DNA of 63,999 nt, counting the filler, from Collodictyon triciliatum (lineage: Eukaryota): the NCBI GenBank assembly GCA_043381765.1. It is 8 parts of 8 records of this genome, joined end to end, with 100 filler letters (N's around TTAATTAATTAA, not from the genome) between each part and the next. Parts side by side here need not be neighbours in the genome. Positions count along the whole stretch, not along the records: positions 15,944 to 23,901 come from JBHJMP010003653.1; positions 24,002 to 31,895 come from JBHJMP010003654.1; positions 31,996 to 39,949 come from JBHJMP010003657.1; 5 more parts are not named here. One strand, given 5' to 3'. Each line of letters opens with the position of its first letter. Within the stretch, counting starts at the first letter, position 1. A model generated the notes under the pieces. It saw only the letters and a list, made by a program, of their open reading frames with translations, searched no databases and was not told the DNA's origin. The position numbers were made by a program, and so were the translations under genes. This document shows positions 16,170 through 40,049 of the stretch, piece by piece.

Positions 16170-16690
16170 TTTTTTTATTCGTCATCTAGTTTTGTGCAGG
16201 ATGCTAAGATTTTGGCTTTGGTTCGCTAGCCATCGTTTGCATGGACGCTACTTGGTGGCTGCGTGGCAGAGAAGTAGTCGGTACTCAGGAATTGAATCCT
16301 GCGGTTTGGCCTGTAGCCTGGGTCTTGTGCTTGCATGGGAGAGACAAAGCGAGGTTGAATCTCTTTCTCAGCTTCTTTCCACATGTCTCTTCTCACGGGG
16401 TCGGAGTAGTAGAGAACGTGCAGGTGGCGAAGGAAGCTGCTGAGGAAAGAGATTTGTATAATGTCATTCAGCCTGTTATCAGGAATGGGTTGTTGGTTGT
16501 TGAGTCTTGCTTTTCAACCAAGCTTCCCGCATCTGATTGTAAAACGCAAGCCGCGACCCGTCGAGAGCTTCACAAGTTGCAGCCAGTTCTGTTCCAAAGC
16601 TGGTGGGGAAAAACTCCCGAGTTGCACGTAAGTCTAGGAAGACCATGCAAGGAAGCCGCCTGCAAGTCTGTCTGAGCGTACAGTATTTTT
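16170..16690 (-). mobile_element. 3' end of a second retroelement (ORF2-like C-terminus, AATAAA and A-tail) abutting the RT fragment
   Basis: Frameshifted ...IIQISFLSSFLRHLHVLYYSDPVRRDMWKE...RIQFLSTDYFS, followed by AATAAAAAAA at 16179-16170. Homologous copies lie at ~20095-20400 and ~35410-35720. Confidence 0.6.
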
Positions 16691-17470
16691 GCACGGGGTC
16701 AAGCATGTCGTTTACAACAAGAACAAGGCCCGCAGACTCATAGATGTGCTCGCTTCCTTCTTGAAAGCGAACAAACTTTGGGAAGAGTCCATCCAACTGC
16801 GCTTACCCGGACAGCGAATGCCTTTGCCTGATCGCCTTCCACACTGCAGAAAACGCCCGAAAGCTTCTGGAGCTGAAGCAGGCAAGTTTGATCGATATTA
16901 TGAGCAGCTTCAGCAGAAGTAAACCAACAGAGACCTCGGTGATGCTCCACTAACAACCGCTGGACGTGTGGCCGCAACTCCTTCATGAGGAGGTGAAGCT
17001 GTTCAGACCGACCCACGTGGAGATCAAAAAGGACAAAGGCTTATTCACAGACACGGCCGTGGTGAAGCTTCTTTGTCATAAGAACCAGCTCCCTTCTAAG
17101 TTTACGGCCATGGGCAAAAAGTATCCAAAGCGCATCCTCAAAGAGCGTCCGCCAGCCGCAAACAACGAACGACAAGCAAAAGCTCCGCAAAAGAATACAC
17201 CTGCCAAGCAGACAAGCAGCAACGAGGTCAAGGAAGCCAAGACCAGGCAACAACAGAGCCTGCAAGGCTCACAGCAGATACGCGCATGCAGCGACAGCGA
17301 CGATGACATGGAAGGAAATCTCGCTTCCTCTTCAGAATCCTCGCACTCGAGCCCTCCACCGCCAACGCTGGACAAGACCGCATAACTGCTATCCTGTCAC
17401 TTTGGACTCAATCAAAAATCGCGTTGGAATTCGCCACTCGAGTTGAATGATCTGTATGTGTGAAGGAAAT
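16690..17470 (+). mobile_element. Decayed LINE ORF1 (RRM-like region, low-complexity tail) plus a conserved downstream spacer
   Basis: With one frameshift and one stop it reads ...LIAFHTAENARKLLELK...VMLH*QPLDVWPQLLHEEVKLFRPTHVEIKKDKGLFTDTAVVKLL...LPSKF... 17392-17468 is homologous to 39265-39342 (minus strand). Confidence 0.55.
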
Positions 17471-20094
17471 CACATTTTTTAAATAATTTTTGACTTTTTC
17501 TCTACTGATGTCCAAGAAGAAAAACCAGTGTGAAATTTATCAGGACTCTGCGCCGTTTCTCTTCAACTCACACAGCTTGACTGGTGGGTTTGGATAATTA
17601 TTTTATACTTTACAAGCAGTTTGATAAAAAAACCTTTAATTATGTAGGTGTAAGAGTAACCTATATGCTGGCGGCATGGAACCGTCAGAATGTGAAGTTT
17701 TTGATGTCACAAAGCGGCTGTTAAATTTTCTGTACAAGACGTTGGAGGCAAACCATAAATATGTTGGCTGCAGCACCCGTTACATTTCGACAACATACAC
17801 CTGTTTCTCAAGTTGATAATATCAATCCAAGAATATAATGGTTCAATCCGTGTGATACCTATTTCCTTCATATATTTTGTGCTTGTTTCGAAAAGTTTCC
17901 AAATCGAAATGAAGCAATAACAGAAATGTTGAAAAAGGGATTATTTGGGAGCATTCTGCAGCACCCGTTACATTTCGATTCTTGAAGGAAAAGCATGGAC
18001 ATCAAGTAAGAAAGCATGGCTCTATTAATATGAAAAGCTCATGATGAAAGTATGCAAAATATTTCAATACTAAATCCATTTAGTACGGCGCATGTACTTT
18101 TGATTAAAATAAGAGGATTTTAATACATAAATGAATGTATGATTATTAGGGCTTACGATACAACGCCAAGGACTCAATTTCACCATCGTTCACGAAGGAT
18201 TTCAATATGTAATATGAAAATATACTTGAAATGTCTTTTGATTTATTCATAATGCCCTCTTAATACTTGCATTTGAACAATACAATATTTAAACTTAACT
18301 TATGAACATCCAAAAACCCAATAACAGTGTGATTTTTACCCATTTTATCGATGCATAGTTGGCGAGAATCTCTATTCGAAGGCCGGTGTATACATGTCTT
18401 GGTAGATTATGTGTATCTCACAACCTTAAAAAATTTTGAATCATGATATTAATTGGATTTATATCACTTTTATGATTCTGATTTATAAACACCGTTTAGA
18501 AAATATAAAATCAAGCATGGTTTTATATTTGAACTCAACAGCTCCTGATAATATCTGCTTTTCCATTGATTTATCGCGAATTATCATCATGCTTCATATC
18601 AATCCATTTTTATAATCTATATTCCATTCATGCAACACGCCTCATTTTTTATGAAATGCTTACACTCTTATCATTTTGCATTAAATATTTAATTTTCCCC
18701 ACCAACGTTTTTTTATTCTTCCTTTCAATTTTGTGCAGGATGGTTGTGATGTTGGCTTTCCCCACAAACGTTGAATCAATTATACTATTTAAATGCTGAA
18801 CCAACACATTATTACCAATATGTATAGACTTTCTTTTCTATATACTGGTTGAATAATCAAACGAGGACTTATGAGGTTTTCGACTGCATGAGCAATAATC
18901 ATTTAGTTTTTCAATGTTGACATCTAAAGCTCAAGACATACTATGTACTTTGTGAATTTTTGTTCACTATAAGCGATACAACTAAGAGAGCATAGCCTGA
19001 AGAAATTTATATATATATATATTTAAAAAAAAGGCGATGTTTAAGAATTTATTCAAAAGATATTCATGCATCGACTAAATTTAATCAACGTAGAAAGCAC
19101 ATCCATTTCGATTATCTAAAAAAATATTTGCAGCGAATTACATATATTTTATATTTAACCATTCAAACTTGATTTGTTTTCGATGCTGTATTACATTAAA
19201 AATCGTTTTGTTATAATTCGCTCACAGTTATCCACTATCACACAAAGCATCAGACGATGTCCAGCCGAAACCAAATTATGAAATGTTTTTAAAGTATATG
19301 ATATTGCCTCATTCTCGTTATCATATTTAATAGTGTAGTTTTTATGACATTATATATTTTTTCATCGAATAACCTTAAACCAATTTTTTTGAATGTCGGT
19401 TTGCGGTCTTTATTCTTCCCTCAAAATGAAAACACAAGGTGTAATGTCCCATCTATAGCAACTAATCAAGATCTTTTCAATAGCTGTGACCTCATATGCC
19501 AAATGAGACGTATGAATGGAGTAAAAAGACGCCATCTTCACTAAATATTTCATATATGATTTACATTCGACATAATTTATACAAAAATTTGCTATCTTTG
19601 CAATATATTGCTTAATTTCTAAGTTTTATACGTGAATATATTAGTTACCTGCCGTACGCATAAAGAGTTCGTTCTGAGGAATGTTTGGATTTCCATATGC
19701 GAAGAGTTATTCATTTACACAATCACTTAGCTTCATGAATGGTTTTATAGATGAAATATGCATGGAAACTGTGGCCTATGTACAGGTTTTTATATGCAAT
19801 TATATATGAGTATAGTGAGTCATGGTTGTTTCAAAAATAAAAAAATATGGAATCATGAAGCCAGAAAAATCAGCGATGCCGAGTGAACATAACGCCATGA
19901 ACTTTATTAGATACAAAAGATCTATATATGATTCAGTCATAACCAAACTGTCCTTCTTGTATTCAATTTTTATATACTTTCTATTCAAAGCACACATAGG
20001 TCGATTTTTATCACGGCTCCATGACATGGTTTGGAATAAATATGTATCAAGACAACCAGGCATGATTTGATAAAACATCCTCCATGTTGATATT

Positions 20095-20400
20095 TTTTAT
20101 GCAAATCATTTTTCAATTTGATTTGTGCAAATTTAGATGATTTTGGCTTTGATTCGCTAGCTCTTATTTGCGTGTATGCTTTTTTCGGAACCTGAGGGTC
20201 AGAGAAGAAGTCGGTCATCAGGATTTGCATTCCGCACTTTGACCTTTAGCCATGGTTTTATAGCCACATGAAAGGTAAGGGGAGGTTTACTCACTTTCTC
20301 GGTTACTTTACACGCATCTCTTCTCATAGGGTTCTGACTAACGAAAACGTGAAGATGGAGAAATAATCAGCTGTAGAAATGGGAGCCATATCACATTGGT
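20095..20400 (-). mobile_element. Decayed copy of the retroelement 3' end seen at 16170-16690
   Basis: HLHVFVSQNPMRRDACKVTEK...MQILMTDFFSDPQVP...ASESKPKS. The nucleotide motif GATTTTGGCTTTG(G/A)TTCGCTAGC is shared with 16208-16230. Confidence 0.65.
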
Positions 20401-23400
20401 AGCAACGTTTCTGCATATTCACAGTCTCTGATATTTATATTCATGCACAGAACTGTTGTATGAAGAGACATCCTGCCGTGTGAGAAATGATTTCTAATTC
20501 GCTTTGATATCGAAATTTTATTAGTTCATTTTTTGACCTTTCATACCATAAAATACCATGTTTATTTCCTCTTGTCTTTATGCAGCTCACACTTTTTTGG
20601 AGTGTTAACTGAAATTGATGCCTTTTATTTTATTTAGACCACCTATTTTTAAAATGATGCTAATTCAACTAGAGTTGCTTGTATTTAGCTGTGCCATTTT
20701 GATGAAAAAGACGACATGATTGAATTGTTTTGATGAACCTACACAAGTAATTAAATTCAAGTATTTTTGAAAACGAAGCGATAATTCCAGAATTTATATA
20801 TTTTAGAATATCATTAATTCAATTTTGAACATTTACTATTTTTACATGGAGGCGAATAGACAATATGGTTATGTAATCATATATAAGTCGATATTGTCAA
20901 CGTAAGGTCTGATAACTACTATTTCAACGCAGTAACCTTTTTCATTTATCATTCCGATATATTATTTTTGCATTTTTATTCATATAGGAATGACTAAATA
21001 TATGCCTCTTGACGGACTGCTGCCGAAGCAAACGAAAGTGATAGAGGTTTTTTTACTCTAAATCTATATTTTTTTACTTCACACATGGAAATCGATTGAT
21101 ACGGGGACGATTGAATTTAGTCGGCTTTAATGATTACGTCAGTTTATTCTTGTCCAATTTCAATAACTGTAAATGACTATAGCCACTGCGCAACCAAATT
21201 GCTTGCATTATGAATAATGCAATATTGATATAAAATGTTGTATTCATGATTATGCCTTCATTAATGAGAAAACTTAATATTCTTTTATACCACGCAGGAA
21301 CCAGTTGGAGGCCTTTGAATATCCAATTTAGCCGAAAGTAGATGAATTTGTTTGCTCATGAAGTTGCTTATCTCATGGTCTATTACGTAACCTGCAATGA
21401 AAGATTATATTAAACAAATGCTTTTATTTTACGTCATTTTCTTTTACGTGATTAAAATAAAAGATTTATAAATTTATGTCAGTTTCATGCCGCATCGCTA
21501 ATCTGGGTAATATTATAATAGCTCAATACAGCACATTTTTTTATCATTTTTTAAATTTGATTCAATCGAAAAATTTGTTAAGCAAAAAGAGGTGTTTATA
21601 TCAGTATCATAAGAATCTCGAGGTGTATTTTTCAATTTATCTTGTATTTCCAATGCATTTGTCTTGTCTAATGACGAATCAGAATTAACATATGAATGAA
21701 CAATTTTAGTCATACTTGGGTTTATAAGAACAAACCAGCTGATGAGAGAAAAAAGATGATTTAATATCAAAGTTTCAGTTACCAACCAACGATGGTATAT
21801 GATTATTATTTTGAGGAGTTATCTATTCCAATAGTATTAATTAAGTCATATTTTGAATTATTTCCATCGTAAAAAATGACATAGAAATCATCTTTTGTAC
21901 CTGATTTTCGCTAATTTTTCACCCGCTTTGAATCCAGTGTAGTTCATCGTAAAAGGACACGAGACAAAACAACCAAGGGAAAGGGAACTGTTCGGTCTGC
22001 TGCTACTACCGAGGAGAGAGGGGTGGTTGGATGACGGCACCCAGTTTTTCCGGTGTTATAAGGGAATGGTCTAAATAAAGATTTGTGGGGTGTGGGATGA
22101 GTTGTTGTGTGAGAAAAAGCAAGTCTCAATGTTGTCCATGAATTTCATAAAATAATAATAAAAAAGCATTTCAATATATATTTGATGTGTTAAATAGAAC
22201 GCGACGGAGCGGGTATGCAATCACAAAATCATATTCTATAGATTTTTATAAATTACTATTTTCATGTAGATTTATACGATTTGTATTTTATTCAAAGAAA
22301 TCAATATGTCAATTATTCCAAAAAATACAGTTGTGTTTGTTCAGTGCAATTATATTTTGCTTTTCATAAACAATCAAAGCATGTTACACCAGCGATGCCC
22401 ATGCCTGCAAATTTCAGAACTTATCTTTTCTATTCTATTAAAAATACTATGTGAAAGATGAATTTTAATTTTGCAATGGCTCTAATTTGCCAGCTGAGTC
22501 TATTTGTTATGAAACCGATAGGAGTCCTTGCCAAAACCGATTGCCACGTTTACCACGAAAGGAGTATTGTATTCTATGCATATTTCATTATTATATTATC
22601 CTTATTACTCCAGAGCAACTATCTGCTCGAAACCCTTTATGCCTCAGTTCGCTGCCTGTGATACCACACCTTCCCTCGACTCGGCTAGTATGCACACTCC
22701 ACAACAGGTAATTCTCACCCACACAAATCGTTGCCTCGCTTCGGCTGCCTTTTCGTTGGTGCATGGTAAGGAGCATGAATTAATTTATATCCAAATGAAA
22801 ATAAATGGCATCTATTAGATGTTTACTGAAGCTCTTGTAGCTGATTTTATTTCTTTTTTTATTTTTTTCTTGTACATAATAAAATCATGGAGAACGAAAG
22901 CGCAAGCTTGAAGCAAACACAACCAAGCACAAGAACGGAGCCCTCCGCTCGACCAAAGCTTCCCAGCCACATCTGTTCACTAGTAAAAGAGCGCTCGGAA
23001 GCACATGTGCAGATTCGGCTGCCACATCCGCCTTCGAGGTAAGCACAAATGCCCAGAACTACCACGCCCACATACATGTAAGGAAATAAGAAGCCCAAGT
23101 TGTGAAAGACATTGAGTGGCTCATTTAGGAGACTATGAACCAGCTATTCGATTAACTTCAAAAATGCACATCATACTTTCCAAAAGAAATAAACGCGGGG
23201 AGAGAGAGCAAGTTAATACTTATCCGTTCTTTTTTTCCCGCCGATACAAAGAGAGGTCAGCTTTTTGCTACCCATCATCCGTGGCATTTCTCGTGGCTTC
23301 ATCAAGGAAAACATTGAAAGTACGTGAAAAACAAGCATTCATATTAGCAGTATTCATCAAATGTTCAAACGTGTTTCGATTAATGAAGCGCTGAACTAGA

Positions 23401-24001
23401 ATCCGGCATCAGAACTACGCAATCATTTATAAAAAAAACTTCAATGTTACGTTTCCCTGTCTTTCATAATCCGTCCCAGAACGCAAGAAAAAACCAAAGG
23501 AAAAAATCATGGTAAACGCCATCACAAAATACTGACAGACCGAGCATCCAAGCATAGAAAGACAATGTCGATTATTTTAAATCCAACCACGCGGTGCTAT
23601 GGAAGAATCAGCATCGCTCAAGCAAGAAGCAACTTTCACAGGAGCTCTCCATAAAGAGTTGACGGGTTATTAGAAACGCACTCCACACTGAAACAATCTG
23701 GGCTAACAACGCAAGGTAAAGTAATATCAAGATAGTAATATTTCTATTTTATATTCGAAGTCTATTATTTTACAAATTTAATTCCTAACAAGACTTTTTT
23801 TCATGATTTGTCTGTTAATCAAAGGTACTTATGGAAAACATGCTTACGTTGAATGAAAGGCGAGCAGATAAACCTTGGAAAAGTTGAGCGGTGGTCTTGG
23901 TNNNNNNNNNNNNNNNNNNNNNNNNNNNNNNNNNNNNNNNNNNNNTTAATTAATTAANNNNNNNNNNNNNNNNNNNNNNNNNNNNNNNNNNNNNNNNNNN
24001 N

Positions 24002-27000
24002 ATATTGAGTGCATCATTACCAAATCACTCCTTGAAATTCAACCTTCACGAAGAATTCCTTTATTCTCTGTAGTTGAAAAGCTAGCGGTAGTATTTTATC
24101 AGTAAAATCGCTCTAATGAGCCTTCATACTCACATATATTTACTAAATATTATAGGAATACCTTCGTGAATTTACCAAACCACATGAGAGTCCCTGAAAA
24201 GGTTTTAAAAAAATATTTGTTAGATGCAAAGTCCTGAAAAAGTAAAATGTAATTTTTTTCTTACTGTGTTTACTTGCAAACATAATTGATTGATTATTAG
24301 TTATTTGACATGAATTCAAGAAGAGGAAAAGAAACTGCAACTATCGTGTGCGCACGCATTAATGAACTTGAAAGGCTTTGGTCCGAATATCCCGATGATA
24401 TAACAGAGGCGATTATTATGCTAAGAAATATATTTGATAAGGTTAACAAAAAAAATATAAACTTATAAATTTAAATACGATATAAACCACGGCGATAAAC
24501 TTTTTATGAAACATAGCTTCGGTTGTGATTTTTATTTTTGAAAAAAATTGCTTAGGTTCTGATATCTACTGGTGGAACGGAAATTCAAAAAAGCAAGATG
24601 AATATTTATTGATGTTTTCTTTGCCTCTTTCTTCTTTACAGTTAAGCCAGATTTGGTTAAAATATTTCACGATTATTTGGTATATTGTACTAATTTAAGT
24701 TAATATTTTACAGCTAAAAAGATGAATAATTCTAGGTTTTACCATCAGCTTCAAGTAGAACTCCAGCAAATTTGTTGGCCTCATAACAACCGATTACATG
24801 AAAATATTTCAAATGAACCACCAAAAAATACCTCAGTATCTCTGAGTGTTTCTCTGGTAAAACGAAAATATTTATCCCGAATAAAAGACATATGTGTCCT
24901 ACAACACATTTCGTATTAAATATCTAATCCAGGTGGCCGATTTTGGAGAGTGTAGCATTACTAGACGTGATGGTGACTTATACGTATCGAAAGAAAAGGT
25001 AATTTTTTAGTTGATGCATTAATTCTTACCTTAATTCTTACCTTAATTCTTACTTTCTGCTTATTTCTGCTTATTTCTGCTTATTTCTGCTTATTCCTGC
25101 TTATTTCATATTATAAAAAATACATAGATAAATAAGTAAATAAAAATTTTATAAATAAATGTAGTTAATTGATCGGGTGAGGGAATTATCTGTACTTGCA
25201 AGCAACGGTCAAATGATAATAGGTTGTAAACTTTTAAAGGTAATTTGATGGGGATTAAAACCATCAGATACAAGATTTTTCATAGTATTTATCACAAAAT
25301 CATATTATTAATGCCTTTCAACTCCAAAATATTATATCTAGCAGATAGGCAAGAATAATCTTCGACTTTTTGTAACTACAAGATTAATATCGCCAGAAAC
25401 AACGTTAATGAATGAAGATAGCTTGGTTTATGACTTTTAATTTCAACTTTACCTTGCATGCATTTATTTTTTAAAAAACTATTTTCAAATTTTTATCTCT
25501 ACATCTCATGTCTCCTAATTTTGAAAAAAAAATTATTTTCACTTTTGAATTTTTGAAAAATGAGTATTTCAGTTTTGGATATTGAACGTTTTATCATAAT
25601 TAAAATGTCATAGATGCGTTCATGGTCTCTGCCGAATAAAATTCAATTGCCTGACCAAGATGATAAAATATTAAATTACTACAAAAGAAATTCAACGAAG
25701 GTTATTTTTAATTATTATTTTATTTCAAAACTTAGCTTCAGATAATTAGCATGTAGTTTTAATTACAAATAGGAAATAAAATTGCAGCATCCAAACATGG
25801 TGGACAATAAGGATTTCGATATGTTTGGTATTTATACAATCTACACTCCGATAGTCCCTTTTTTTCTCTTCCTTAAGCTATTTTAAAAAACATGATTCTA
25901 AAATATACTAGCACCCACGGAGAAGAGTTTTGTCGATGGAAACTCATCAGATATTGACGAGAAGATGTTACAGCGTGTAAGCATTCCCTGGACAGATATA
26001 AGCTTGACCGGAAAGATTATTGGGAAGGGAGCTCATAGTGTGGTATATATAGCAGATTACAAGGTGAGTTCCTGGAAAATAATTCTAATCTGTCAAACAC
26101 ATGTCAATTTTGTGGCTTCTAAAATATCTACAACTTTTTAGGCTTCTAAGGTCTCGGCCAAAATCGTAAGGGCAGATTATGCCAAAGTGGACAAGTCTAA
26201 AATAGTCAGGGAGATTTTCATTCATAGGTAACTATTTCCTCAGACTTTTTTTCGATATATGAATTTTCCATATGAATAAATCTTTTTTCCAGGAAATTGA
26301 AGCACCCAAACATTCTCCCCCTAATTGGCTTTTGTATGACTGAGCACAAAGCTGCCATTCTAACTCCTTATGTCGGCTCGATGAATTTGAAGATTATTTT
26401 GAGAAATACAGCCAAACAATTCCCATTGCATGAAAAGTACTATGTTTCATACGCTTGTAAAAATTTATTGTCTGTCACTCGAATCCTTTTTTGCGCTTTC
26501 ATATGGTATTTATGCCAAAATATTTGTAAATTTAGGCTGTCCATTTTAAAGCAAGTAGCTGAAGGCATGGATTATTTGCATACACGAGACCCTCCTGTGC
26601 TTCATAGAGATTTGAAAACTGCTAACATACTGGTCAGTATTGCGTGGTTTAATGTAATGAAGTACCAGCCATTCTTTCCACCAAATGAAGGAAATGAAAC
26701 ACTGGAGATTGAATTAGGATAACAAAATAGGTCACAAGAGAAACGCCTTTTATGATTAAAATATGCGGCTTTACATTCTCGGGTTCTTTCAAGGATGGTT
26801 TAGCAACAACAAAGTGCGGAACATTAATCTACCAGGCTCCAGAGGTAAACAATCTCACTTGAACACCTTTCAAAGGTTCATCTTGAAATTTGAATTTGAT
26901 TTTAAAAAAAAAAAGAAAAGGAATTGAAATCTGTTATATTTATTTCGCCTCATGGTAAATCCTATTATATACATTTAATGAAAATTCATGCCTTTCATTT

Positions 27001-27450
27001 TGGTCTTTTAATTGATTTCATTTCATACATTAAAATCAAAAATCATGACAGATAATTCGAGGAGAACCATATGGACTGAAAGTTGATGTGTACAGTTTTG
27101 CGATAGTAGCATGGGAAATCGAAACAAGAAGTCTTCCATATGAAAATGTTGCAATGAAAGACATTGGGATTCAGGTGCTAGAAGGAAAACGCCCAAGATT
27201 TCAGAATGACTCCAATGATGTCATTGAATACATTTCTCAATTATCGTGGAACAATGACCCTGCTTCACGTCCTTGCTTTGCAGACATTCTGAAAATTCTT
27301 GCGGTAAGTTGCTTCGATGTATTTTTATTAAAAAGGAGAAGAAAAAAAAGACAACAATAATTATTAGTGTTTGCGGAGAACAATAAGATATGGGACTATG
27401 AATATGCTATATTCAACTGTCTATTATTTCCACAGGAAGGGGTCGTTTGA
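24002..27450 (+). CDS. Kinase - (degenerate) class III nucleotide cyclase - TKL kinase protein of the Acanthamoeba/Mimivirus receptor-kinase type; 5'-truncated
   Basis: End of a first kinase: IITKSLLEIQPSRRIPLFSVVEKL. Cyclase-like exons: ATIVCARINELERLWSEYPDDITEAIIML, FYHQLQVELQQICWP, LIDRVRELSVLASNGQMIIG. Second kinase: IIGKGAHSVVY...VSAK...HRDLKTANIL...TKCGTLIYQAPEIIRGEPY...DVYSFAIVAWEIETRSLPY...VLEGKRP. Some small exon boundaries at 24150-24740 are uncertain. Confidence 0.8.
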
Positions 27451-27766
27451 GAGCTAAACGGAATTGTTGCTGTCAATCTGAATTTTTAGATGGAATGAAT
27501 TCATCCTCAAATATATATACTTTTATCATGTCCCTGGATGAGACTTTAGTATCCACAATCTTTATATTTTATCATTATTGATGGGTTTAATGTCACGTTA
27601 TCTATATTTATTTATCTGGATGTATGAGCGATGCTGTTCTCATTTACACGCTACCACCAGCGAGCAAGAGCAACTGAAGCCTAGGAACTTGCCATTAATA
27701 CTTCAAAATAAACAAAGAAATATGCTAAACCGTGCGTGTATTGATGACGCAGTTTTTGGACCTGTA

Positions 27767-27801
<35 letters not shown>

Positions 27802-27823
27802 CTATTACCATTACCACCATCAT
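27767..27823. repeat. (CAT)n microsatellite
   Basis: Directly visible. Confidence 0.9.
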
Positions 27824-28159
27824 GTGCCAGGTTTTTTGAAGACTGCTGTGGGTTGCGTAGAATCAGTAAAGTAGTGAAGGACTTGCCTCTTGCGCCCTGT
27901 TGTCATCAACCAGGACCTTAATATGTGGAATTTATCTCCGAATTTTTAATTTTTAATTACATGAGGATATAAATGACGCATAATCTGGTTTTATAACACA
28001 TAATATATAATTGTAACATAAATTTAAATATTAGACAAGGTTCGCTTGACCTACTAGCGTCAATAACGAAGTTGGTTAACACGTAGCCTTTCGGCCACTT
28101 TTCCCTTTCGCCTTAAGAATATTTCTCTGAATGTTCCATCGCCTTTCAGCTCGTGTATA

Positions 28160-29790
28160 AATTCACAACAACCCAACAACATCTTCGTTAGCATGGTCAA
28201 GTTCATCCACAACTCGCCGCGTCACGATTTCCGCCCGCCCACAACGGCCATGGAACATTCTAAACCGCAACACGATTCTGCAGCGTCGGAACAATCGAAG
28301 CGAGCGGAGCACTGTGCCGCACACCATTGCCGATGCCACTGAATTAGCGTCCGAAGCCTGGTCAAGGAACAATAATATATTCGTAACAAAATCCTCCGAG
28401 TGCGTCGGCCAGCCTGGAAATCCGGCTGCTTCAGCGGGGGTTTTGCGTCTCGCTTAGCCACTTTCGTCGTGCCTGCGATCAGGCTGCGAGCGTTGTAGGT
28501 TTGCTTGCAGACTGAGACTTGCCTGGAGAATGAGACCGCGTGGAACTCTAGACACAATTGCTTCCATTTATTCACCTCTGGAAGAAAAAAAGGAAAGAGA
28601 GGGCACTCCACCTTCGTCAAAGAACCAGTGGCTGGGAAACAGGCCTCGACTGAGTCTGTTGCAGCTCCCAGCACTCCCATAGGCATTCCCTCTTGCTGGA
28701 ACGCCTCCTTCTGCTTATTAATATGAGCGAGCTCTATACGTCTTTCTCTTTATCTTCGCTGTCTTTCAGGATCACAAGTACGCTTGGCCGAGAAAGACAT
28801 TATATGCACCATAACGGGGGTTTCTTCAGAGCTTGGCGGTGGCAACCAGTTATTGGACACGAAGTCTTCAGAGAGCAGATGTGAGCTGCGCTGCGCCACT
28901 CGTCAAAGAGTCTCCTGTCAAGACTTAGCCTGAGAAACTGGAGGACGAGATGCAGAACCTGGGGATTGAACGGCCCCCCCAGCTTATTCTCCACACGTCC
29001 TCACATCTACACATACACATGGAGTTCCTAGATCTACTTGCCTGTCGAGAGCGTGGCAGACGAAAAAGTCTCGGACACAATTCTACTAGCTTCTATGCAA
29101 GGCAAAGACAATAGTGAGATGCGCGATTGCTTAATTGAAAAGGCACCGGACACAGCCCAGTTCGAGCGTCTAGAGGCGAGAAGACCAGGCTGATATGGCT
29201 TTCCATTTAGTCAGGCTTGTATACATCTGCAGAATCCTGGAAGACGTGATATTGTGATGCGCGCAGAAACACCGATGAACTCTGGAATACCTGCGCTACT
29301 ATCCTGTCCATGCGGCTTTATTCACACCCCCGTCCTGATTTACTGATACAAGGTGTGATCGACTGCTTAGGAAGGGAAGAATCCACTCAAGCAACGGATT
29401 GGGAGGGATGTGCTGTTCTTCCTGCCGCAGCAGAAGGAAAAATAAGAATAGTGAGGAACATATTATCATACCTGATGGATCCCTAACAAGTTGAGGCCGG
29501 CCCTGCGCGTTCATGAATGTCAAGAAATCGTGCAGGCTGGATTCTCTTCTCATTTCTGGGCCGCGAATGAGCCTTTAGTCGAGTTCGGCGGGTTGTGGAT
29601 GGAGGACGGTGAATTGTTTTGGAGTCAGAATTATTGGGCCATGCCAGTCAGTCAGTCCACACATCGAGATAGCAGAGATAGTATAAGAAGTGGAGTGGCA
29701 ATTAAGATGAATCAACTATGGAGACGGCCATATCATGTTACTGTGTCAGATTGGTTTTGTTTCATAGGGGGTTTACTCATGGAAGGATGA
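28160..29790 (-). mobile_element. Decayed LINE ORF2: RT remnant and possible C-terminal RNase H
   Basis: LLEWILPFLSSRSHLVSVN followed by a frameshifted SAGIP (RT pattern W-I-x-x-F-L-x-x-R...GVPQG). The distal SDANSVASAMVCGTVLRS...HANEDVVGL is weakly RNase H-like. Many disablements. Confidence 0.55.
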
Positions 29791-31054
29791 ATGATTTGCT
29801 TTGTAATTAGACGGATCGGGGATTATATTTATTTGCGCAAACGTTTGTCTTGTGCACACAGAATCCTTTGTGTATTTACATTTGCTGTCTATTTGGATAG
29901 CTTTTCCTCTTTGCTCATCGCTCTTCATTTCCCATTATAATGTATCCTTACAAAAAATCACCGCTTCATGCATGATTCAATACCACGAGTAGTTGGTCGA
30001 AACGCAACATAGAAACACATATTGTAGCACACTATGAAACATAATAGAGCCAGAGTGATTCAAAATGAAGCAAAATGATTCATAGAACTATTATATAAAG
30101 GAAGTAAATACAAGCTTCACCAAATATCACCTCCTCCTTCTACCTCTGGGGTTCATAATCAATCCACATGCATGGCGCTGTTTTANNNNNNNNNNNNNNN
30201 NNNNNNNNNNNNNNNNNNNNNNNNNNNNNNNNNNNNNNNNNNNNNNNNNNNNNNNNNNNNNNNNNNNNNNNNNNNNNNNNNNNNNNNNNNNNNNNNNNNN
30301 NNNNNNNNNNNNNNNNNNNNNNNNNNNNNNNNNNNNNNNNNNNNNNNNNNNNNNNNNNNNNNNNNNNNNNNNNNNNNNNNNNNNNNNNNNNNNNNNNNNN
30401 NNNNNNNNNNNNNNNNNNNNNNNNNNNNNNNNNNNNNNNNNNNNNNNNNNNNNNNNNNNNNNNNNNNNNNNNNNNNNNNNNNNNNNNNNNNNNNNNNNNN
30501 NNNNNNNNNNNNNNNNNNNNNNNNNNNNNNNNNNNNNNNNNNNNNNNNNNNNNNNNNNNNNNNNNNNNNNNNNNNNNNNNNNNNNNNNNNNNNNNNNNNN
30601 NNNNNNNNNNNNNNNNNNNNNNNNNNNNNNNNNNNNNNNNNNNNNNNNNNNNNNNNNNNNNNNNNNNNNNNNNNNNNNNNNNNNNNNNNNNNNNNNNNNN
30701 NNNNNNNNNNNNNNNNNNNNNNNNNNNNNNNNNNNNNNNNNNCAAAAGCACAGGCATACTTCTGGGCTTACTCACGGCTGGAACATAGTCACTATCTTGC
30801 GAAGCCGCTGCATATGATGGCATCTTTTTAGGTGACAAAACTGCTTTGTTTCCGACCAGAGTTAATGGATTTCAAGGTCGCTCTTTTTTTTCTCCTTTGA
30901 AAAATTGAAAAATTGAAAAATTGATAAATTGAAGAATAGAAGAATAGAAGAATAGAAGAATAGAAGAATAGAAGAATAGAAGAATAGAAGAATAGAAGAA
31001 TAGAAGAATAGAAGAATAGAAGAATAGAAAACTGTGTGGCGTAGGAACAAAAAC

Positions 31055-31620
31055 CTTTAGAGCTACGATATACTTGCTAGACTTCTCACGAGCCAAGTAC
31101 ACATTCCCAAATCGACCACGACCGAGCGGACGGCCAATCTCAAAATCCTCTATGGTCCACCGACGAGAGGGTACAGAGGCTGGAACAGCAGCCGGAGTTG
31201 CAGGTGTATGTTCATCATGGGAGACAGACGAGGCACTTGATGTAAGCAGCCGTGGAGGATCAGGCTTTCTGGCCCTGACAAGAAAGCGTTCTGTTAATAA
31301 TAAATTATTTCGCATAACCACGTGAGCCCCTTCTAAAAGAAAAAATCCAATAGAAAAAAAATGGAAAAGCAATGTTCATACGGGATAGTCTCGGGCGTTG
31401 CCGAAGCTGCGGCAGGCTTTCCTCGTGGGGTGATAGGTCTTGTACTCAGAGAAGGAGCCAGCAAGGATGGAGACGGGGAGGCACGAGTCTCACGTGGGCC
31501 GTTTGACAGATTCTCTTTCGTAACTTCAGAGGAAGTCTCCTTCGGCGAAGCGGCGTGTTTTTTCAGGCCGCGAGGTACTTTGCTGGTCGAACTGTCAAGA
31601 CCGAGAGCGCGCTTTCCAAG
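31055..31620 (-). CDS. Aurora kinase, N-terminal region and start of the kinase domain (partial)
   Basis: A low-complexity N-terminal exon with a KEN box (VTKENLSN) is spliced to [39 protein letters not shown]. The remainder is not visible (gap 30186-30742). Confidence 0.88.
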
Positions 31621-31768
31621 CTGAACACATGAATAACGTGAGTGAGATGGTGTTTCCAGGAAATGCTGTGAAGTCCTTCATAGTTGAAAGAATCCAAATC
31701 CAAAAGAAAAAGAGAAAAAAAGAGAGAAAAAAAAAGAGAGAAAAAAAAGAGAGAAAAAAAAAAGAGAG

Positions 31769-31882
<114 letters not shown>

Positions 31883-33391
31883 AGAAAAAAAAAAANNNNN
31901 NNNNNNNNNNNNNNNNNNNNNNNNNNNNNNNNNNNNNNNTTAATTAATTAANNNNNNNNNNNNNNNNNNNNNNNNNNNNNNNNNNNNNNNNNNNNCAAAA
32001 AAAAGACAAAAAAAAGACAAAAAAAAGACAAAAAAAAGACAAAAAAAGACAAAAAAAAGACAAAAAAAAGACAAAAAAAAAGACAAAAAAAGACAAAAAA
32101 AGACAAAAAAAGACAAAAAAAGACAAAAGGACTAAAGGCTAAAAGACATACGACAAGAGAAAAAGTAAAAGAAAAATGAAACGATTGCAGTGGTTCAAAT
32201 TCTGATGAAACCATTCACAAATTGATTTTAAATAGATCGGAAACAGATAATACAACAGCCGAACATGGAAGTGAGTCCAAGGGCTTTATTCTTTGGAAAA
32301 TAAGAAAGGAGGAAAGACTGGCAGGTGCGATGCCCCTAGTTATTTTTCCTTTATTCTATTTTAAAGTAATCCATCTAATTCCTATTAGCAGGGTAATCAA
32401 TCCTGCTGAGACTATCTAATACAGTAGCTCGCCGCAGCTTGGTCACTCTCACGAATCAGTGCCACTGTTTCATCGGCGAATTTTTTCTTTTGTCTTTTAC
32501 TTGAGTTACTGAGTTTACTAGAAACTACGTCCAAACAAGATAGGATTGTTATGTGCAAAAGTTGATATTGTATTAATTTTTTTGTCATACAGGCGTGGTG
32601 AACATAGCTTCTCTTACAAAATATGAAGAAAAGAAAAATAAGCACAGAAATAGCTTATCTTTAGTATCTCGTCTTCCTTAATTATTGCGTAGTATCCAGT
32701 TCTTATACAATAAGTCCAACGTCTAATTTTACATAATGCTTCTTCTTCTCATGCATTATGTTAGAACGGCGTAGTATTTATTCACAAAAAAGAAATGTTA
32801 TTTTATTTTTTTTGGTTCTGCCATTGTTATCCACTGGTGGCCAATCAAACTACCCAACGCACCAAGACGTTTGGTTTATATATATATATATATATTTCTG
32901 GCTGGAGTTTAATACTGCCCAGATGATTCAATTAGTATGTATTTTTGAACTACAAGCTCTTCTTTTCCTTTTTTTTTTCTTTTCCCTTCTCTCGACCACA
33001 ATCATCACTGGTTGATGTTTGTGATGGTGCGAAGTCCTGTCGCCGATGAGCCTTGAACACACAGGGGCTACGAGTTTGGGGGTTGATTACCTCGGGCTAC
33101 ACGCTGCCGATTTCATCACTAAAATTGAACCTGTTTCCTAGAAACCTGTAAAATATGGGTTGACACTTTGGTGGAACCGTTTCTGAGATTGGCCTCTTTG
33201 ACACTCGAGCGGAAGTTGCTTTGCGACACACTCTATTACCTTTCTAGAAAACAACAACTTCACTTGCTCTCATCATATCGTTTGTTGACTAGTATGAGAA
33301 ATAGTCCCAACCACTTGCTTTGTGTTTTGAACATCTTCCTCCTACCCAGCTAACAGGGTTTCCTAACGTCTTGCCCAACGCACACACAGCG

Positions 33392-35251
33392 ATGGCGTCA
33401 GCACCGACAGAAAAAGAGGACGGTGTTGACTTGAACGTGATCGATTGTGATGAGGGATATATTGCTAGCCGAAGGCAAGGAATGGCTGATGCTACGATGT
33501 TACAACAGGAAAATATTGGTAGACTCACGAATGAAAGGGGAACAGATTCAAAGGAGCAAAATAGCGGGAAAGTATATACGAAAGTCATCACAGAACATGC
33601 GCCGTCTGTCTCTTCATCATCAGATAAGTATACAAACAAAAACGGCAGGTCTACGTATCCAATAAGTGGCCTAGAGCGCAAAAGCGATCGAATAACTCCA
33701 ACGGATAAAGCAATTGCAAGGATTCAACATCATAGTGAAGGTAGTCCCCTACACAGACAGGAATCGATTATCCGACAGCCCGATACCCGATGCTTGGTAG
33801 ACTCATTCAAGTATGCCACCGTCCGCGTGGCTTGGCTAACGTACCATTCTACGGTACTAGTATTTATTCCCTTTGCTACTTCAGTGCTGATATATGGCTC
33901 GTCAAAGTTTTTCATCGTGAATAACCGAAGCATGCTCATTTTCTTTTTAGTCTCCAATTCTTTTTTTATAGCCATGATGTATGCCACTATATCTTCGATA
34001 TTTATTCGAATGTTTGGTGAAAAGAGAATCTCTAAATTGGTAACAAGGCTTACAATACCAATCGCATTGAGTCACCTTGCAGTTCATTTTGCTTACTTTT
34101 ACTATGGATTAGCATACCTTGCTTTTGTTTATGCAAACTTCTTTCTTCTAAACTATTTTTTCGTATTGTGGTGCGTTAAAAAAGGAATTTGGAGAAAACC
34201 CTCCTCAAGTACAAAAGTAAAGTCAAAGAATGACGTCCTCTCTTCAGATGGAACCCCTATGGCACTTGTAAGAGGGATGATCCCTTACGTTGTTTTGTAC
34301 TTTTTCGGTTCCCATTTTTTCGTGAGCTACATAATATCATCGAACATCATCTTCCGAATTATCGGTAGGATTTTAATAGTCCCCGTGCTGGCTAATATTG
34401 TGGATTCATACCAAAACAAACAATTGATTTATAAATCAAAGGAGCATTTGAAGCACCGGATGATTATTGGAAGCATATTAAATTCCATTTTACTAGCAAC
34501 ATTGAGATTGATGACAACTGATACAACTAGTCTGCAATATACAACAATTCTATCATTTTGTGCAGCGATGAGTGAAATTGTGGTCCGAGTGAGCTTTATC
34601 CCTCGCACTATCTACACATTGAGAATAATGATGCTAATCGAACATCACATAGTGGGATTTTTTAACGTCGACAATAAAGTTTCGAATTTGAGTAACATTT
34701 CGAATGGGAGCAACGAGCAACATGATTTACCCCTACCAATCGATGCTCGACGAGAGCAAAATGGTCAAAACAATCATGATAAGCAGGAAATTCATATCAT
34801 TCATATTGGGAAAATTATATGGAGCACCGAAGGAATGAAAGCTCTTGTATCAGTTCTCAACAAAGAAGACAGTTTGACAGACATAATATCAACGTATCGC
34901 ACAAATAGAGCTCACGACATCGCTATGTTTGAGATACAGTCATCCATTTTTATCCCAACGTTACTTTATCTTTCATCAAGTATGCGCAGCTATTTTACAT
35001 TTGAGTCCTTCTTGAATATTGAAGAGTTGCTGTTGAATATCCTTGTGCAGACCCTGGTCGAAATATCATCTCAGGTCGTTTGCGCAGCTATGGAGCACTA
35101 TTATTTTGGAATAAAATTGATAGTGAAAGAGAACACGAGACATTATCTTAGCGCTTCTATATTACTGCATTATGCATTGTGCATCCTTACGATAGTCTTC
35201 CTTTCAGTAAGTCCTTTCCAGTTAAGTGCTGAATCGTGGCCCAATGAATAA
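33392..35251 (+). CDS. Intronless multi-pass membrane protein of unknown function
   Basis: 619-aa uninterrupted ORF from ATG 33392, with a disordered N-terminus followed by roughly ten hydrophobic segments. Confidence 0.85.
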   Translation: MASAPTEKEDGVDLNVIDCDEGYIASRRQGMADATMLQQENIGRLTNERGTDSKEQNSGKVYTKVITEHAPSVSSSSDKYTNKNGRSTYPISGLERKSDRITPTDKAIARIQHHSEGSPLHRQESIIRQPDTRCLVDSFKYATVRVAWLTYHSTVLVFIPFATSVLIYGSSKFFIVNNRSMLIFFLVSNSFFIAMMYATISSIFIRMFGEKRISKLVTRLTIPIALSHLAVHFAYFYYGLAYLAFVYANFFLLNYFFVLWCVKKGIWRKPSSSTKVKSKNDVLSSDGTPMALVRGMIPYVVLYFFGSHFFVSYIISSNIIFRIIGRILIVPVLANIVDSYQNKQLIYKSKEHLKHRMIIGSILNSILLATLRLMTTDTTSLQYTTILSFCAAMSEIVVRVSFIPRTIYTLRIMMLIEHHIVGFFNVDNKVSNLSNISNGSNEQHDLPLPIDARREQNGQNNHDKQEIHIIHIGKIIWSTEGMKALVSVLNKEDSLTDIISTYRTNRAHDIAMFEIQSSIFIPTLLYLSSSMRSYFTFESFLNIEELLLNILVQTLVEISSQVVCAAMEHYYFGIKLIVKENTRHYLSASILLHYALCILTIVFLSVSPFQLSAESWPNE

Positions 35252-35409
35252 AATAAAAAAATTAACAACATAGAAGCTGCCTACCCTCTTATATCGTACA
35301 AATTGAGCGGAATAAACATACTATGCAACTGCATACCTTGGGATTTAACTGACTTGGGTTTTTTTAACATCGAACCGAATGAAGTGGGGAAAACTTGGGG
35401 TTTAAAAAA

Positions 35410-35720
35410 ATATTTATTTGAATGTATGAAGTAGAGCCATACATAATGTGGAGATTGGTGTGTGTGGTCGAGAGCAAACGCGAGTAGAAGACGCTACCGT
35501 GGAGAGGGTAGCACTGGAAAGAAGTCAGTGATAGCGAGTTGGTCAGGTGGGTGTCCCAACTGGTTGATTCGTTGCGTGGGTAGCAGGGGTTGGATATGCT
35601 GTGGGGGATATCGCACGACACATTCCCACATCTCTCTTCACTTGCGGTCAGAGCAGCGAAGAATGCAGAGTAGTGCTTCAGCAGGCTGTTCAGGAAGCTG
35701 TATTGCACGAGGCTTTCAAG
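35410..35720 (-). mobile_element. Third decayed copy of the retroelement ORF2-like C-terminus/3' end
   Basis: LVQYSFLNSLLKH.../SDRK*REMWE...DQLAITDFFPV, followed by TGTATGGC...TCAAATAAA. Confidence 0.55.
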
Positions 35721-39949: not shown

Positions 39950-40049
39950 NNNNNNNNNNNNNNNNNNNNNNNNNNNNNNNNNNNNNNNNNNNNTTAATTA
40001 ATTAANNNNNNNNNNNNNNNNNNNNNNNNNNNNNNNNNNNNNNNNNNNN

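What the first reader, a model, noticed from the sequence alone, without database searches (positions are those of the whole stretch)
16170..35720. Three diverged retroelement 3' ends all keep a p21-type PIP box at the protein C-terminus
Seen: homologous decayed minus-strand segments at 16170-16690, 20095-20400 and 35410-35720 (two scaffolds) share FL...H...(SD/NP)..R(D/E).(W/C). They end in QFLSTDYF (16294-16271), QILMTDFF (20227-20204) and QLAITDFF (35541-35518), each followed by an AATAAA or A-rich end. The third copy is downstream of, and co-oriented with, an RT remnant. Established: Q-x-x-[ILM]-T-D-[FY]-[FY] is the high-affinity PCNA-binding motif (p21 QTSMTDFY), and human L1 ORF2p binds PCNA via an internal PIP box between EN and RT. 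Inference: this is a LINE lineage with a C-terminal TD-type PIP box that couples integration, or protein turnover, to PCNA.
Basis: partly seen in the sequence, partly recalled or inferred. Interest (0 to 1): 0.7.

Follow-up and report, generated by a model that had tools for sequence, protein, structure and literature searches.

The report
LINE tails with conserved PCNA-docking motif
Three dead, front-truncated copies of a LINE-type jumping gene in a freshwater protist end in a short, well-conserved peptide that matches the strongest known docking tags for the DNA sliding clamp PCNA, but binding itself has not been shown.

Summary
The segments are truly homologous. The pattern occurs 3 times in six frames of the window, against 0.01 expected from shuffles.

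They are 5'-truncated 3' ends of one LINE group. Metagenome relatives carry the same tail in one frame behind a Pfam zf-RVT zinc knuckle. A fourth 48-bp copy at 18709-18756 has an A7 tail and a 15-bp target-site duplication. Other copies run on past the truncation point of copy 1.

Across five sublineages the consensus is Q-x-x-[IM]-T-[DN]-[FY]-F. These positions are far better conserved than the 28 residues before them. Synonymous changes there are saturated, so the constraint is on the protein.

- The motif lies 7-14 residues before the stop, not at the end.
- The extents of copies 1 and 3 were wrong.
- No RT remnant lies upstream of copy 3. The only RT match, 15945-16181, is a separate truncated LINE copy downstream of copy 1.

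Continuity with an APE-RT ORF and PCNA binding remain inferred. This scan reported the same motif twice before on other pieces of this genome (e1-7246953, e1-7201261). I class it as a new variant of a known kind, of moderate interest.

The parts
16170..16513 (-). Copy 1 (lineage A): 5'-truncated LINE 3' end. It holds the last 95 codons of ORF2 (16513-16229), the stop, a UTR of about 50 nt, AATAAA and an A7 tail.
   Evidence: It is 85-88% identical to the metagenome proteins P0001 and P0006 from KARLNN onward. Family contigs run on past 16513 with letters that read ..TMWIARIY.R, as in P0006.
16271..16294 (-). PIP-like motif QFLSTDYF of copy 1. The Ser at the hydrophobic position is private to this copy.
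   Evidence: Most family contigs read A instead of C at 16284, which turns AGT into ATT (Ser to Ile): X10 depth 316 of 322 in 11 contigs, X2 43 of 43, X1 6 of 21. P0001, P0002 and P0006 have Ile.
20093..20379 (-). Copy 2 (lineage B): an older 5'-truncated 3' end. Its frame is broken by a 2-nt deletion before the motif and an indel after it. It has an A-rich end.
   Evidence: 70% DNA identity to copy 1 over 244 bp. Summed contig depth over it is 0-13.6, so close relatives are few.
20204..20227 (-). PIP-like motif QILMTDFF of copy 2.
35411..35877 (-). Copy 3 (lineage C): 5'-truncated 3' end. It starts in the ILFGxQ / LWTVTRGH block of ORF2, carries an internal A-run at 35745-35760, one stop, and a frameshift near 35640. 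It ends at AATAAATA.
   Evidence: tblastn matches of P0003, P0004, P0006, P0008 and P0010. Comparison with locus L001 of the same lineage.
35518..35541 (-). PIP-like motif QLAITDFF of copy 3. The stop comes 7 codons later, at 35496-35494.
   Evidence: The motif is identical in P0005, P0009, P0010 and L001.
18709..18756 (-). Copy 4: an extremely 5'-truncated copy of about 48 bp, 3' UTR only, ending in GAATAAAAAAA.
   Evidence: 81% identity to the 3' UTR of copy 1. Alignment. Summed depth is 65-146 against single digits in most neighbouring bins, and contig joints run from 18744-18759 back to 16207-16221.
18757..18771 (-). Upstream half of the target-site duplication of copy 4 (ACGTTTGTGGGGAAA).
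   Evidence: 14 of 15 letters match the downstream half at 18708-18694.
18694..18708 (-). Downstream half of the target-site duplication of copy 4 (ACGTTGGTGGGGAAA). Its first A overlaps the A-tail.
15945..16169 (-). Neighbour, not part of copy 1: a separate 5'-truncated LINE fragment encoding RT motifs (YDLEKAYD .. GCPLAPLLFN). It abuts the A-tail of copy 1 and is cut by the end of the piece.
   Evidence: Pfam RVT_1 E 1.7e-7, 31.6 bits against a cut-off of 29.6. Its relatives continue upstream of 16169 with unrelated letters in X1, X10 and X2.

Best explanation
The segments are dead, 5'-truncated 3' ends of a group of L1-like (zinc-knuckle-bearing) LINE retrotransposons in a freshwater protist genome.

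The ORF2 protein of this group ends as follows: a helical segment, then a poorly conserved stretch, then a conserved eight-residue motif Q-x-x-[IM]-T-[DN]-[FY]-F, then 7-14 more residues with a Pro at +6.

The motif is a canonical PIP box of the rare T-D subtype found in p21, Cdt1 and Set8.

Most likely it is a short linear motif that docks ORF2p onto the hydrophobic pocket and Q-pocket of DNA-loaded PCNA. That would bring target-primed reverse transcription to primer-template junctions or repair sites, or recruit PCNA partners to finish integration.

Shown here: the homology, the LINE hallmarks, the link to zf-RVT, and protein-level conservation of the motif.

Inferred: continuity with an APE-RT ORF, PCNA binding, and the role in integration.
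For: 1. LINE identity
- A profile of the three window tails found 5 proteins with E up to 0.001 among 1.84 billion. Five further members of their clusters were read.
- P0003 and P0004 pass Pfam's cut-off for zf-RVT: 36.4 and 27.8 bits against 27.5.
- P0003, P0004, P0006 and P0007 carry the knuckle and the tail motif in one frame. P0008 has the knuckle but a frame-broken tail without the motif.
- Thirty of 30 named Atlas feature hits of P0008 are zf-RVT clusters (top score 0.98). One structure row is a cluster with zf-RVT on 98% and RVT_1 on 84% of members. The Atlas gives leads only.
- Copies are truncated at different 5' points: 16513, about 20379, 35877 and 18756.
- L001 ends in AATAAA plus A10.
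- Copy 4 has a target-site duplication matching at 14 of 15 letters.
- The family is multi-copy in three metagenome runs.

2. Motif conservation, taking one consensus for each of 5 lineages over 123 scored columns
- The six defined PIP positions have a mean modal fraction of 0.90 and a mean BLOSUM62 pair score of 4.6.
- The 30 scored columns before the motif give 0.45 and 0.16. The 7 after give 0.49 and 0.83. The other 115 columns together give 0.59 and 1.78.

3. Protein-level constraint
- Copy 1 against L001, six PIP codons: 5.0 synonymous differences on 2.8 synonymous sites, and pN 0.13.
- The 28 codons before the motif have pN 0.66 and the 7 after have pN 0.60.
- Copy 1 against copy 3 gives pN 0.13 (motif), 0.66 (before) and 0.53 (after).

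4. In the AlphaFold2 model of P0003 the motif (237-244) lies in a stretch where the 10-residue block means of pLDDT fall from 68 (residues 221-230) to 48 (231-240) and 33 (241-250), behind helices scoring 69-85. That fits a linear motif. The whole model is weak, with mean pLDDT 54.5.

5. Established knowledge
- The canonical PIP box is Q/N-x-x-psi-x-x-theta-theta. [quoted passage not shown]
- PCNA co-purifies with human L1 and is needed for retrotransposition (PMC7617806 and PMC5371812, passages).
Against: - No relative was found that reaches an RT or APE domain. Three word-based protein searches found nothing. The metagenome scan gave one 1157-bp locus. The viral and prokaryote contig scans gave none. 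The ORF2 assignment therefore rests on zf-RVT and on the LINE hallmarks.
- No binding test was possible.
- The D is N in lineage E (P0004) and in P0006. Copy 1 itself has Ser at the hydrophobic position.
- The outside relatives are few: 10 proteins and 1 locus, all from short metagenome contigs. The five 'lineages' are not fully independent samples.
- PIP-like motifs can bind other partners, so a match to the consensus does not prove that PCNA is the target.
- Human L1's own internal PIP box has recently been questioned in favour of a non-canonical site (PMC7617806). Motif matches in LINE proteins can mislead.
Confidence: 0.6

Rival explanations
1. The motif is a PIP degron. ORF2p that docks on chromatin-bound PCNA is ubiquitylated by CRL4-Cdt2 and destroyed, limiting LINE activity to a short window or serving as a host brake.
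For: The TD pair is 'specifically present in CRL4-Cdt2 substrates' among human partners (PMC3973308, passages). The majority sequence of lineage A has Arg at +4: SATR in P0001 and P0006. At 16260 the change T to C is read in 11, 7 and 5 contigs of X1, X10 and X2.
Against: The degron signature needs R or K at +4. The lineages read: B Q, C P, E P, D H. Copy 1 has Q and P0002 has L. The +4 position is therefore not conserved while the PIP core is. Whether this protist has a Cdt2 pathway was not examined.
Confidence: 0.12
2. The conserved peptide serves something other than PCNA. It could bind another host factor that reads FF or PIP-like motifs, or it could pack back onto ORF2p itself or onto ORF1p or RNA.
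For: Conservation alone does not name the partner. A Pro at +6 is present in all 5 lineages; I did not check whether the PIP consensus covers it. AlphaFold2 draws a helix over residues 234-245, at low confidence. It is my recollection, from no call, that PIP, RIR and MIP motifs overlap in sequence.
Against: All six defining PIP positions are kept, including Q and the TD pair, not only the aromatic pair. PCNA dependence has been shown for the best-studied LINE.
Confidence: 0.2
3. The segments are terminal exons of a host gene family rather than retroelement ends. Homology between copies 1 and 2 starts right after a splice-acceptor-like CAG.
For: Copies 1, 2 and 3 each have ...cag just before the FL..H block. 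DNA identity between copies 1 and 2 begins there.
Against: Homology runs through the supposed acceptor: RLNDIIQISFL in copy 1 against RLESLVQYSFL in copy 3 and in P0006 and L001. Relatives carry zf-RVT in the same frame. Copies are frameshifted, truncated at different points and multi-copy. One copy has a target-site duplication and an A-tail.
Confidence: 0.03
4. Conservation reflects an RNA or DNA element near the LINE 3' end, for example a site that the RT recognises, not a peptide.
For: Some LINEs need 3' RNA structures (recalled, from no call). The motif lies about 100-170 nt from the 3' end.
Against: Synonymous differences in the six PIP codons are saturated between lineages, while non-synonymous ones are 4-5 times rarer than in the flanks: CAA/CAG, ACC/ACT, GAC/GAT, TTC/TTT.
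Confidence: 0.03

Closest known systems
Human LINE-1 ORF2p and PCNA (internal PIP box at residues 404-419 / 407-415; 'PUB' motif in the wrist domain)
   Same: A LINE reverse-transcriptase protein that uses the sliding clamp. PCNA co-purifies with the L1 RNP and the contact is needed for retrotransposition (PMC7617806, PMC10830420 and PMC5371812, passages).
   Different: The human PIP-like helix lies between EN and RT and packs against the RT. The 2025 structure paper places the real contact in the wrist domain and calls it non-canonical. Here the motif is a textbook TD-type PIP box, 7-14 residues from the C-terminus, behind the zinc knuckle. No sequence or fold match to human ORF2p was obtained.
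Pogo / Tigger / Lemi1 transposases
   Same: Mobile-element enzymes that carry a PIP box. Pogo transposase was found as a PCNA interactor in a two-hybrid screen (PMC5371812, passages).
   Different: They are DNA transposases, not LINEs. [quoted passage not shown] That Pogo's motif sits at the C-terminus is my recollection, from no call.
p21, Cdt1 and Set8 PIP degrons (Q-x-x-psi-T-D-theta-theta-x-x-x-R/K)
   Same: They share the TD-type core, which gives high-affinity PCNA binding (PMC3973308, passages).
   Different: They are host cell-cycle regulators. The +4 basic residue that defines the degron is not conserved here: only the majority sequence of lineage A has R.
Bacterial IS and Tn7 transposition proteins that bind the beta sliding clamp
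   Same: A mobile-element protein carries a short clamp-binding motif, a case of convergent use of the clamp (PMC5371812, passages; PMC4549789, listing and start of abstract only).
   Different: A different clamp, a different motif (QxxL(x)F) and a different transposition chemistry.
L1-type LINE ORF2 C-terminal region with the zf-RVT zinc knuckle (Pfam PF13966)
   Same: P0003 and P0004 pass the family cut-off. The C-x2-C-x7-H-x4-C knuckle is followed by roughly 140-150 residues to the stop.
   Different: Pfam's model covers only the knuckle region. The helical segment and PIP tail behind it matched no Pfam family, no PDB chain and no fold.

Membership tests
LINE (non-LTR retrotransposon), L1-like | Reverse-transcriptase domain in the same ORF as the tail | tested here: inconclusive
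   No relative long enough was found. The longest are P0008, open for 232 aa upstream of the knuckle, and L001, open from its contig start. The RVT_1 match at 15945-16181 belongs to a separate copy.
LINE (non-LTR retrotransposon), L1-like | C-terminal CCHC zinc knuckle (Pfam zf-RVT) in the ORF | tested here: met
   P0003 scores 36.4 bits and P0004 27.8 bits against a cut-off of 27.5. The knuckle is also present in P0006, P0007, P0008 and L001. The window copies themselves are truncated downstream of it.
LINE (non-LTR retrotransposon), L1-like | Variable 5' truncation with a common 3' end | tested here: met
   The copies start at 16513, about 20379, 35877 and 18756. Family contigs continue past 16513.
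LINE (non-LTR retrotransposon), L1-like | Poly(A) or A-rich tail, with a polyadenylation signal | tested here: met
   AATAAA plus A7 in copies 1 and 4, AATAAA plus A10 in L001, and an A-rich end in copy 2. Copy 3 has AATAAA but no A-run.
LINE (non-LTR retrotransposon), L1-like | Target-site duplication | tested here: met
   Copy 4 has a duplication matching at 14 of 15 nt. For copies 1-3 none of 8 nt or more with at most 1 mismatch was found in 30-nt flanks.
LINE (non-LTR retrotransposon), L1-like | APE-type endonuclease at the N-terminus of ORF2 | not testable with these tools
   No whole genome is held and no long relative was found.
Canonical PIP box | Q-x-x-[ILMV]-x-x-[FY]-[FY] | tested here: met
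   The consensus of all 5 lineages fits. Copy 1 alone has Ser at position 4, a private change.
Canonical PIP box | Lies in a flexible, exposed region | tested here: inconclusive
   In the P0003 model the 10-residue pLDDT block means fall to 48 and 33 over residues 231-250, but the whole model is weak, with mean pLDDT 54.5.
Canonical PIP box | Binds the PCNA hydrophobic pocket and Q-pocket | not testable with these tools
TD-type (high-affinity) PIP box | Thr-Asp at positions 5-6 | tested here: met
   TD is present in lineages A (majority), B, C and D. Lineage E (P0004) and P0006 have TN.
PIP degron (CRL4-Cdt2 substrate) | Basic residue four positions after the PIP box | tested here: not met
   The lineages read: A majority R (copy 1 has Q, P0002 has L), B Q, C P, D H, E P. 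The position is not conserved across the group.

The most novel reading that the evidence does not exclude
A protist clade of L1-like LINEs has moved PCNA docking onto a modular, p21-strength linear motif at the tail of ORF2p. That would be an independent, canonical solution to the same need that human L1 meets with a buried, non-canonical wrist contact. It would imply that clamp docking is a general requirement of L1-type target-primed reverse transcription. A tail this strong could also compete with host PCNA partners. In lineage A, which has Arg at +4, it could double as a PCNA-dependent degron that times ORF2p destruction.
Probability: 0.4. Interest if true: 0.6.

Novelty: new variant of a known kind. 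Interest (0 to 1): 0.45.

Why it matters
The role of PCNA in LINE integration is debated even for human L1. The classical internal PIP box has been challenged by a newly proposed non-canonical site (PMC7617806).

A LINE lineage with an unmistakable, selected, terminal TD-type PIP box would have three uses:
- It would be independent evolutionary evidence that L1-like elements need the sliding clamp.
- It would offer a simple peptide-level system to test that need.
- It would add retrotransposons to the list of mobile elements (pogo, bacterial IS elements, Tn7) that converge on clamp-binding motifs.

Limits: the same motif was already reported twice by this scan in the same genome. What this window adds is more sublineages, the selection test and the LINE hallmarks. 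It does not add a new phenomenon.

Tried and rejected
SEARCHES THAT GAVE NOTHING USEFUL
- Word-based protein searches for longer relatives found none: the 95-aa tail, the 107-aa ORF upstream of copy 1 and P0003.
- A profile of A4 against PDB sequences gave only a chance CBS-domain row at E 0.95.
- Foldseek of the P0003 model against PDB gave no match at E 0.001 or better.
- The Atlas search on P0008 residues 1-195 scored at most 0.88 with mixed families, so it was uninformative.
- The viral contigs and genome-contig scans found no relative.
- The metagenome scan found one 1157-bp locus. An earlier attempt with a 12-row alignment was rejected because it had no conserved stretch.
- Look-ups in earlier scan notes by sequence found nothing.
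- No whole genome is held for this window.
- No RNA holder was listed for the stretch I searched.
- The complex prediction of the tail with an archaeal PCNA stand-in was not folded, so there is no verdict.
- The target-site-duplication search around copies 1-3 found nothing of 8 nt or more with at most 1 mismatch.

IDEAS DROPPED
- Terminal exon behind a splice acceptor: homology continues upstream of the CAG.
- Copy 1 nested inside an older RT-bearing LINE: the 107-aa upstream ORF has no RVT_1 match, and the RT fragment's relatives diverge at 16169.
- The FPTSF resemblance between 16600 and 35390 is a 10-nt chance match.
- The TDFF strings at 43063 and 1651 have no Q and no surrounding homology.

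LITERATURE
Four searches found 7, 3, 21 and 14 papers, of which 7, 3, 12 and 13 were listed. By title and start of abstract, none describes a C-terminal PIP box in a LINE ORF2. I read passages of only four papers, and subscription journals are not covered.


Full report
WHAT THE WINDOW IS

The window has 63,999 bases at 37.6% G+C and holds 2,564 N. It is a chain of eight pieces of about 8 kb joined by N44-TTAATTAATTAA-N44 spacers. Copies 1 and 2 lie in the piece 15944-23901. Copy 3 lies in the piece 31996-39949. No whole genome is held for it. Public runs that hold parts of it are freshwater, lake and subsurface metagenomes; the best holder shares 0.29 of the sampled words. I did not test that.

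THE OBSERVATION

The three peptides are read on the minus strand at exactly the stated coordinates. The pattern Q..[ILMVS]TD[FY][FY] occurs three times in the six frames, only in these segments. In 100 shuffles the mean was 0.01.

Copies 1 and 2 share 70% DNA identity over 244 bp. Copy 3 is weak on its own (tblastn E 0.024). It is colinear, with RL...Q.SFL.S.L.H, then R.MW, then exactly 28 codons, then Q..xTD.F.

The motif is near the end of the ORF, not at it. Fourteen codons follow it in copy 1 and seven in copy 3. Copy 2 is frame-broken on both sides of the motif.

WHAT THE SEGMENTS ARE

A profile of the three tails (A2) was run against 1.84 billion representative proteins. It found five proteins with E up to 0.001. 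Their clusters gave five more. All come from short metagenome contigs of 1.5 kb or less.

P0006 is 88% identical to copy 1 over the shared part, and P0005 is 93% identical to copy 3.

P0003, P0004, P0006 and P0007 carry a C-x2-C-x7-H-x4-C knuckle and, roughly 140-150 residues downstream in the same frame, the tail with the motif. P0008 has the knuckle, but its tail is frame-broken and lacks the motif.

P0003 and P0004 pass Pfam's curated cut-off for zf-RVT, 'zinc-binding in reverse transcriptase' (36.4 and 27.8 bits against 27.5).

As a lead only: 30 of 30 named Atlas feature hits of P0008 are zf-RVT clusters. One structure row is a cluster in which 84% of members also carry RVT_1.

One metagenome locus, L001 (1157 bp), shows the whole 3' end of lineage C. 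It holds an ORF open from the contig start, the knuckle, a frameshift, the tail QLAITDFFPVLASPR, the stop, a UTR of about 115 nt, AATAAA and A10.

LINE HALLMARKS IN THE WINDOW

tblastn with the outside proteins shows that copy 1 is family DNA only from 16513, copy 2 from about 20379 and copy 3 from 35877.

I laid the contigs of three metagenome runs on 15944-20600 at 80% likeness. The findings were:
- Family contigs run on past 16513. The letters there, read on the minus strand, give ..TMWIARIY.R before KARLNN. That is the P0006 sequence, so copy 1 is truncated exactly there.
- The block 15944-17350 is repeat DNA. Summed depth there is 6-260, against mostly single digits in the other bins, apart from 65-146 over copy 4.
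- Copy 2 has few close relatives (summed depth 0-13.6).

A fourth, 48-bp copy lies at 18709-18756. It consists of 3' UTR only, ends in GAATAAAAAAA, and is flanked by ACGTTTGTGGGGAAA and ACGTTGGTGGGGAAA, which match at 14 of 15 letters.

Variable 5' truncation, A-tails, a target-site duplication and many copies are the marks of target-primed reverse transcription.

THE RT REMNANT

Of 99 ORFs scanned in the two pieces, one matches RVT_1. It is 15945-16181, with E 1.7e-7. It lies downstream of copy 1, directly after copy 1's A7 tail. Its relatives continue upstream of 16169 with unrelated letters in all three contig runs. It is therefore a separate truncated LINE copy. Whether it belongs to the same family cannot be told.

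Nothing upstream of copy 3 matched RT, the RT fragment, or the N-terminal half of P0008.

CONSERVATION OF THE MOTIF

Five sublineages can be told apart:
- A: copy 1, P0001, P0002, P0006. Motif QFLIT[D/N]YF.
- B: copy 2. Motif QILMTDFF.
- C: copy 3, P0005, P0009, P0010, L001. Motif QLAITDFF.
- D: P0003, P0007. Motif QTAITD[FY]F.
- E: P0004. Motif QSVITNFF.

The Ser in copy 1 is private. At 16284 the family contigs read Ile: X10 depth 316 of 322, X2 43 of 43, X1 6 of 21.

I took one consensus per lineage and scored 123 columns:
- The six defined PIP positions have a mean modal fraction of 0.90 and a mean BLOSUM62 pair score of 4.6.
- The 30 scored columns just before the motif give 0.45 and 0.16.
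- The 7 after it give 0.49 and 0.83.
- The other 115 columns together give 0.59 and 1.78.
- The motif window ranks 18th of 116 sliding 8-column windows. The eight best windows printed all lie in the W.V.RGH.LW block.
- One caveat: a few out-of-frame residues of P0010 entered the lineage-C consensus upstream of the motif.

The constraint is on the protein. Between copy 1 and L001 the six PIP codons carry 5.0 synonymous differences on 2.8 synonymous sites but have pN 0.13. The 28 codons before have pN 0.66 and the 7 after have pN 0.60. Copy 1 against copy 3 gives 0.13, 0.66 and 0.53.

WHAT THE MOTIF IS LIKE

From PMC3973308 (passages):
- The canonical PIP box is Q/N-x-x-psi-x-x-theta-theta.
- A PIP degron adds T-D and a basic residue at +4.

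The consensus here meets the canonical and TD definitions. The +4 residue is R only in the lineage-A majority (P0001 and P0006, and 16260 T>C in the contigs). Elsewhere it is Q, P, H and P. The degron signature is therefore not a conserved property of the group.

A Pro at +6 is present in all five lineages. I have no explanation for it.

The AlphaFold2 model of P0003 is weak, with mean pLDDT 54.5. Helices between residues 92 and 225 lie in 10-residue blocks whose mean pLDDT runs from 52 to 85. Behind them the block means fall to 48 and 33 over residues 231-250, which hold the motif. This is compatible with a linear motif in a flexible tail.

MECHANISM

The most likely reading is that ORF2p of these elements docks through this tail onto DNA-loaded PCNA.

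For human L1:
- PCNA co-purifies with the RNP.
- A PIP-like helix between EN and RT was first proposed as the contact.
- A 2025 structure paper instead places the contact in the wrist domain, calls it non-canonical, and proposes that PCNA recruits the RNP to suitable target DNA (PMC7617806 and PMC10830420, passages; PMC5371812, passages).

The tail described here would be a separate, canonical way to reach the same clamp. It would be comparable in logic to the PIP box of pogo-type transposases and to the beta-clamp motifs of bacterial IS elements and Tn7. Binding, and any role in integration, are inferred.

WHAT IS NOT SHOWN

No copy reaching an RT or endonuclease domain was recovered. All three word-based searches, the metagenome scan, the viral scan and the prokaryote scan failed to give one. 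PDB sequence and fold searches gave nothing.

RELATION TO EARLIER WORK

This scan reported a C-terminal PIP box on LINE ORF2 tails twice before, on other pieces of the same genome (e1-7246953 and e1-7201261). Those notes are unchecked leads. My results agree with them and were reached from this window and from outside sequences.

Four literature searches listed only human L1 work and general PCNA or transposon papers. By title and start of abstract, none describes a terminal PIP box in a LINE. I read passages of four papers only.

VERDICT

The LINE reading is supported short of the RT link. The motif is a selected, canonical TD-type PIP box. PCNA docking is the best but untested mechanism. I class this as a new variant of a known kind, of moderate interest.

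Noticed in passing
window 7963-8062, 15844-15943, 23902-24001, 31896-31995, 39950-40049, 47994-48093, 56046-56145: Regular N44-TTAATTAATTAA-N44 spacers show that the window is eight separate pieces of about 8 kb chained together. Several pieces end in microsatellites.
   Followed up: yes
window 16514-17350: A G+C-rich block (about 50%, against about 30% around it) of other repeat DNA lies upstream of copy 1. It has long ORFs on both strands, no Pfam match, high summed contig depth and several break points at 16545, 16590, 16802, 16952 and 17382. It is probably a mosaic of other mobile-element fragments.
   Followed up: partly
window 15945-16181 (-): A 5'-truncated LINE fragment with RT motifs starts directly after the A7 tail of copy 1, in the same orientation. 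Two LINE copies thus sit head to tail at an A-rich site.
   Followed up: partly
window 33305-35248 (+): A 648-aa open frame with many hydrophobic stretches and no Pfam family. It may belong to the intron-free membrane-protein family that an earlier scan note describes for this genome (e1-7201255). I did not compare them.
   Followed up: no
window 37260-38294 (+): A 345-aa open frame, rich in Pro, Ser and Gln, with an HMG box near its end (Pfam HMG_box E 7.2e-8).
   Followed up: no
window 26276-27357 (+) and 30875-31375 (-): Exons of a protein kinase: PK_Tyr_Ser-Thr E 2.3e-14 and 1.1e-10. A second, weaker kinase start matches Pkinase at E 6.9e-4, below the cut-off. A run of 12 His is encoded at 27542-27871.
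   Followed up: no
window 52047-52553 (+): Pumilio-family RNA-binding repeats (Pfam PUF E 3.8e-35).
   Followed up: no
tail alignment A3, position +6 after the motif: A proline six residues after the second aromatic residue is present in all five lineages, while the residues around it vary. I have no explanation for it.
   Followed up: no
window 20097: One contig of run X10 matches the flank up to 20097 and then runs on for 255 unlike letters, at the 3' edge of copy 2. Its first 30 letters do not match the DNA beyond copy 2's 5' end, compared by eye, so it does not look like a simple empty site.
   Followed up: partly
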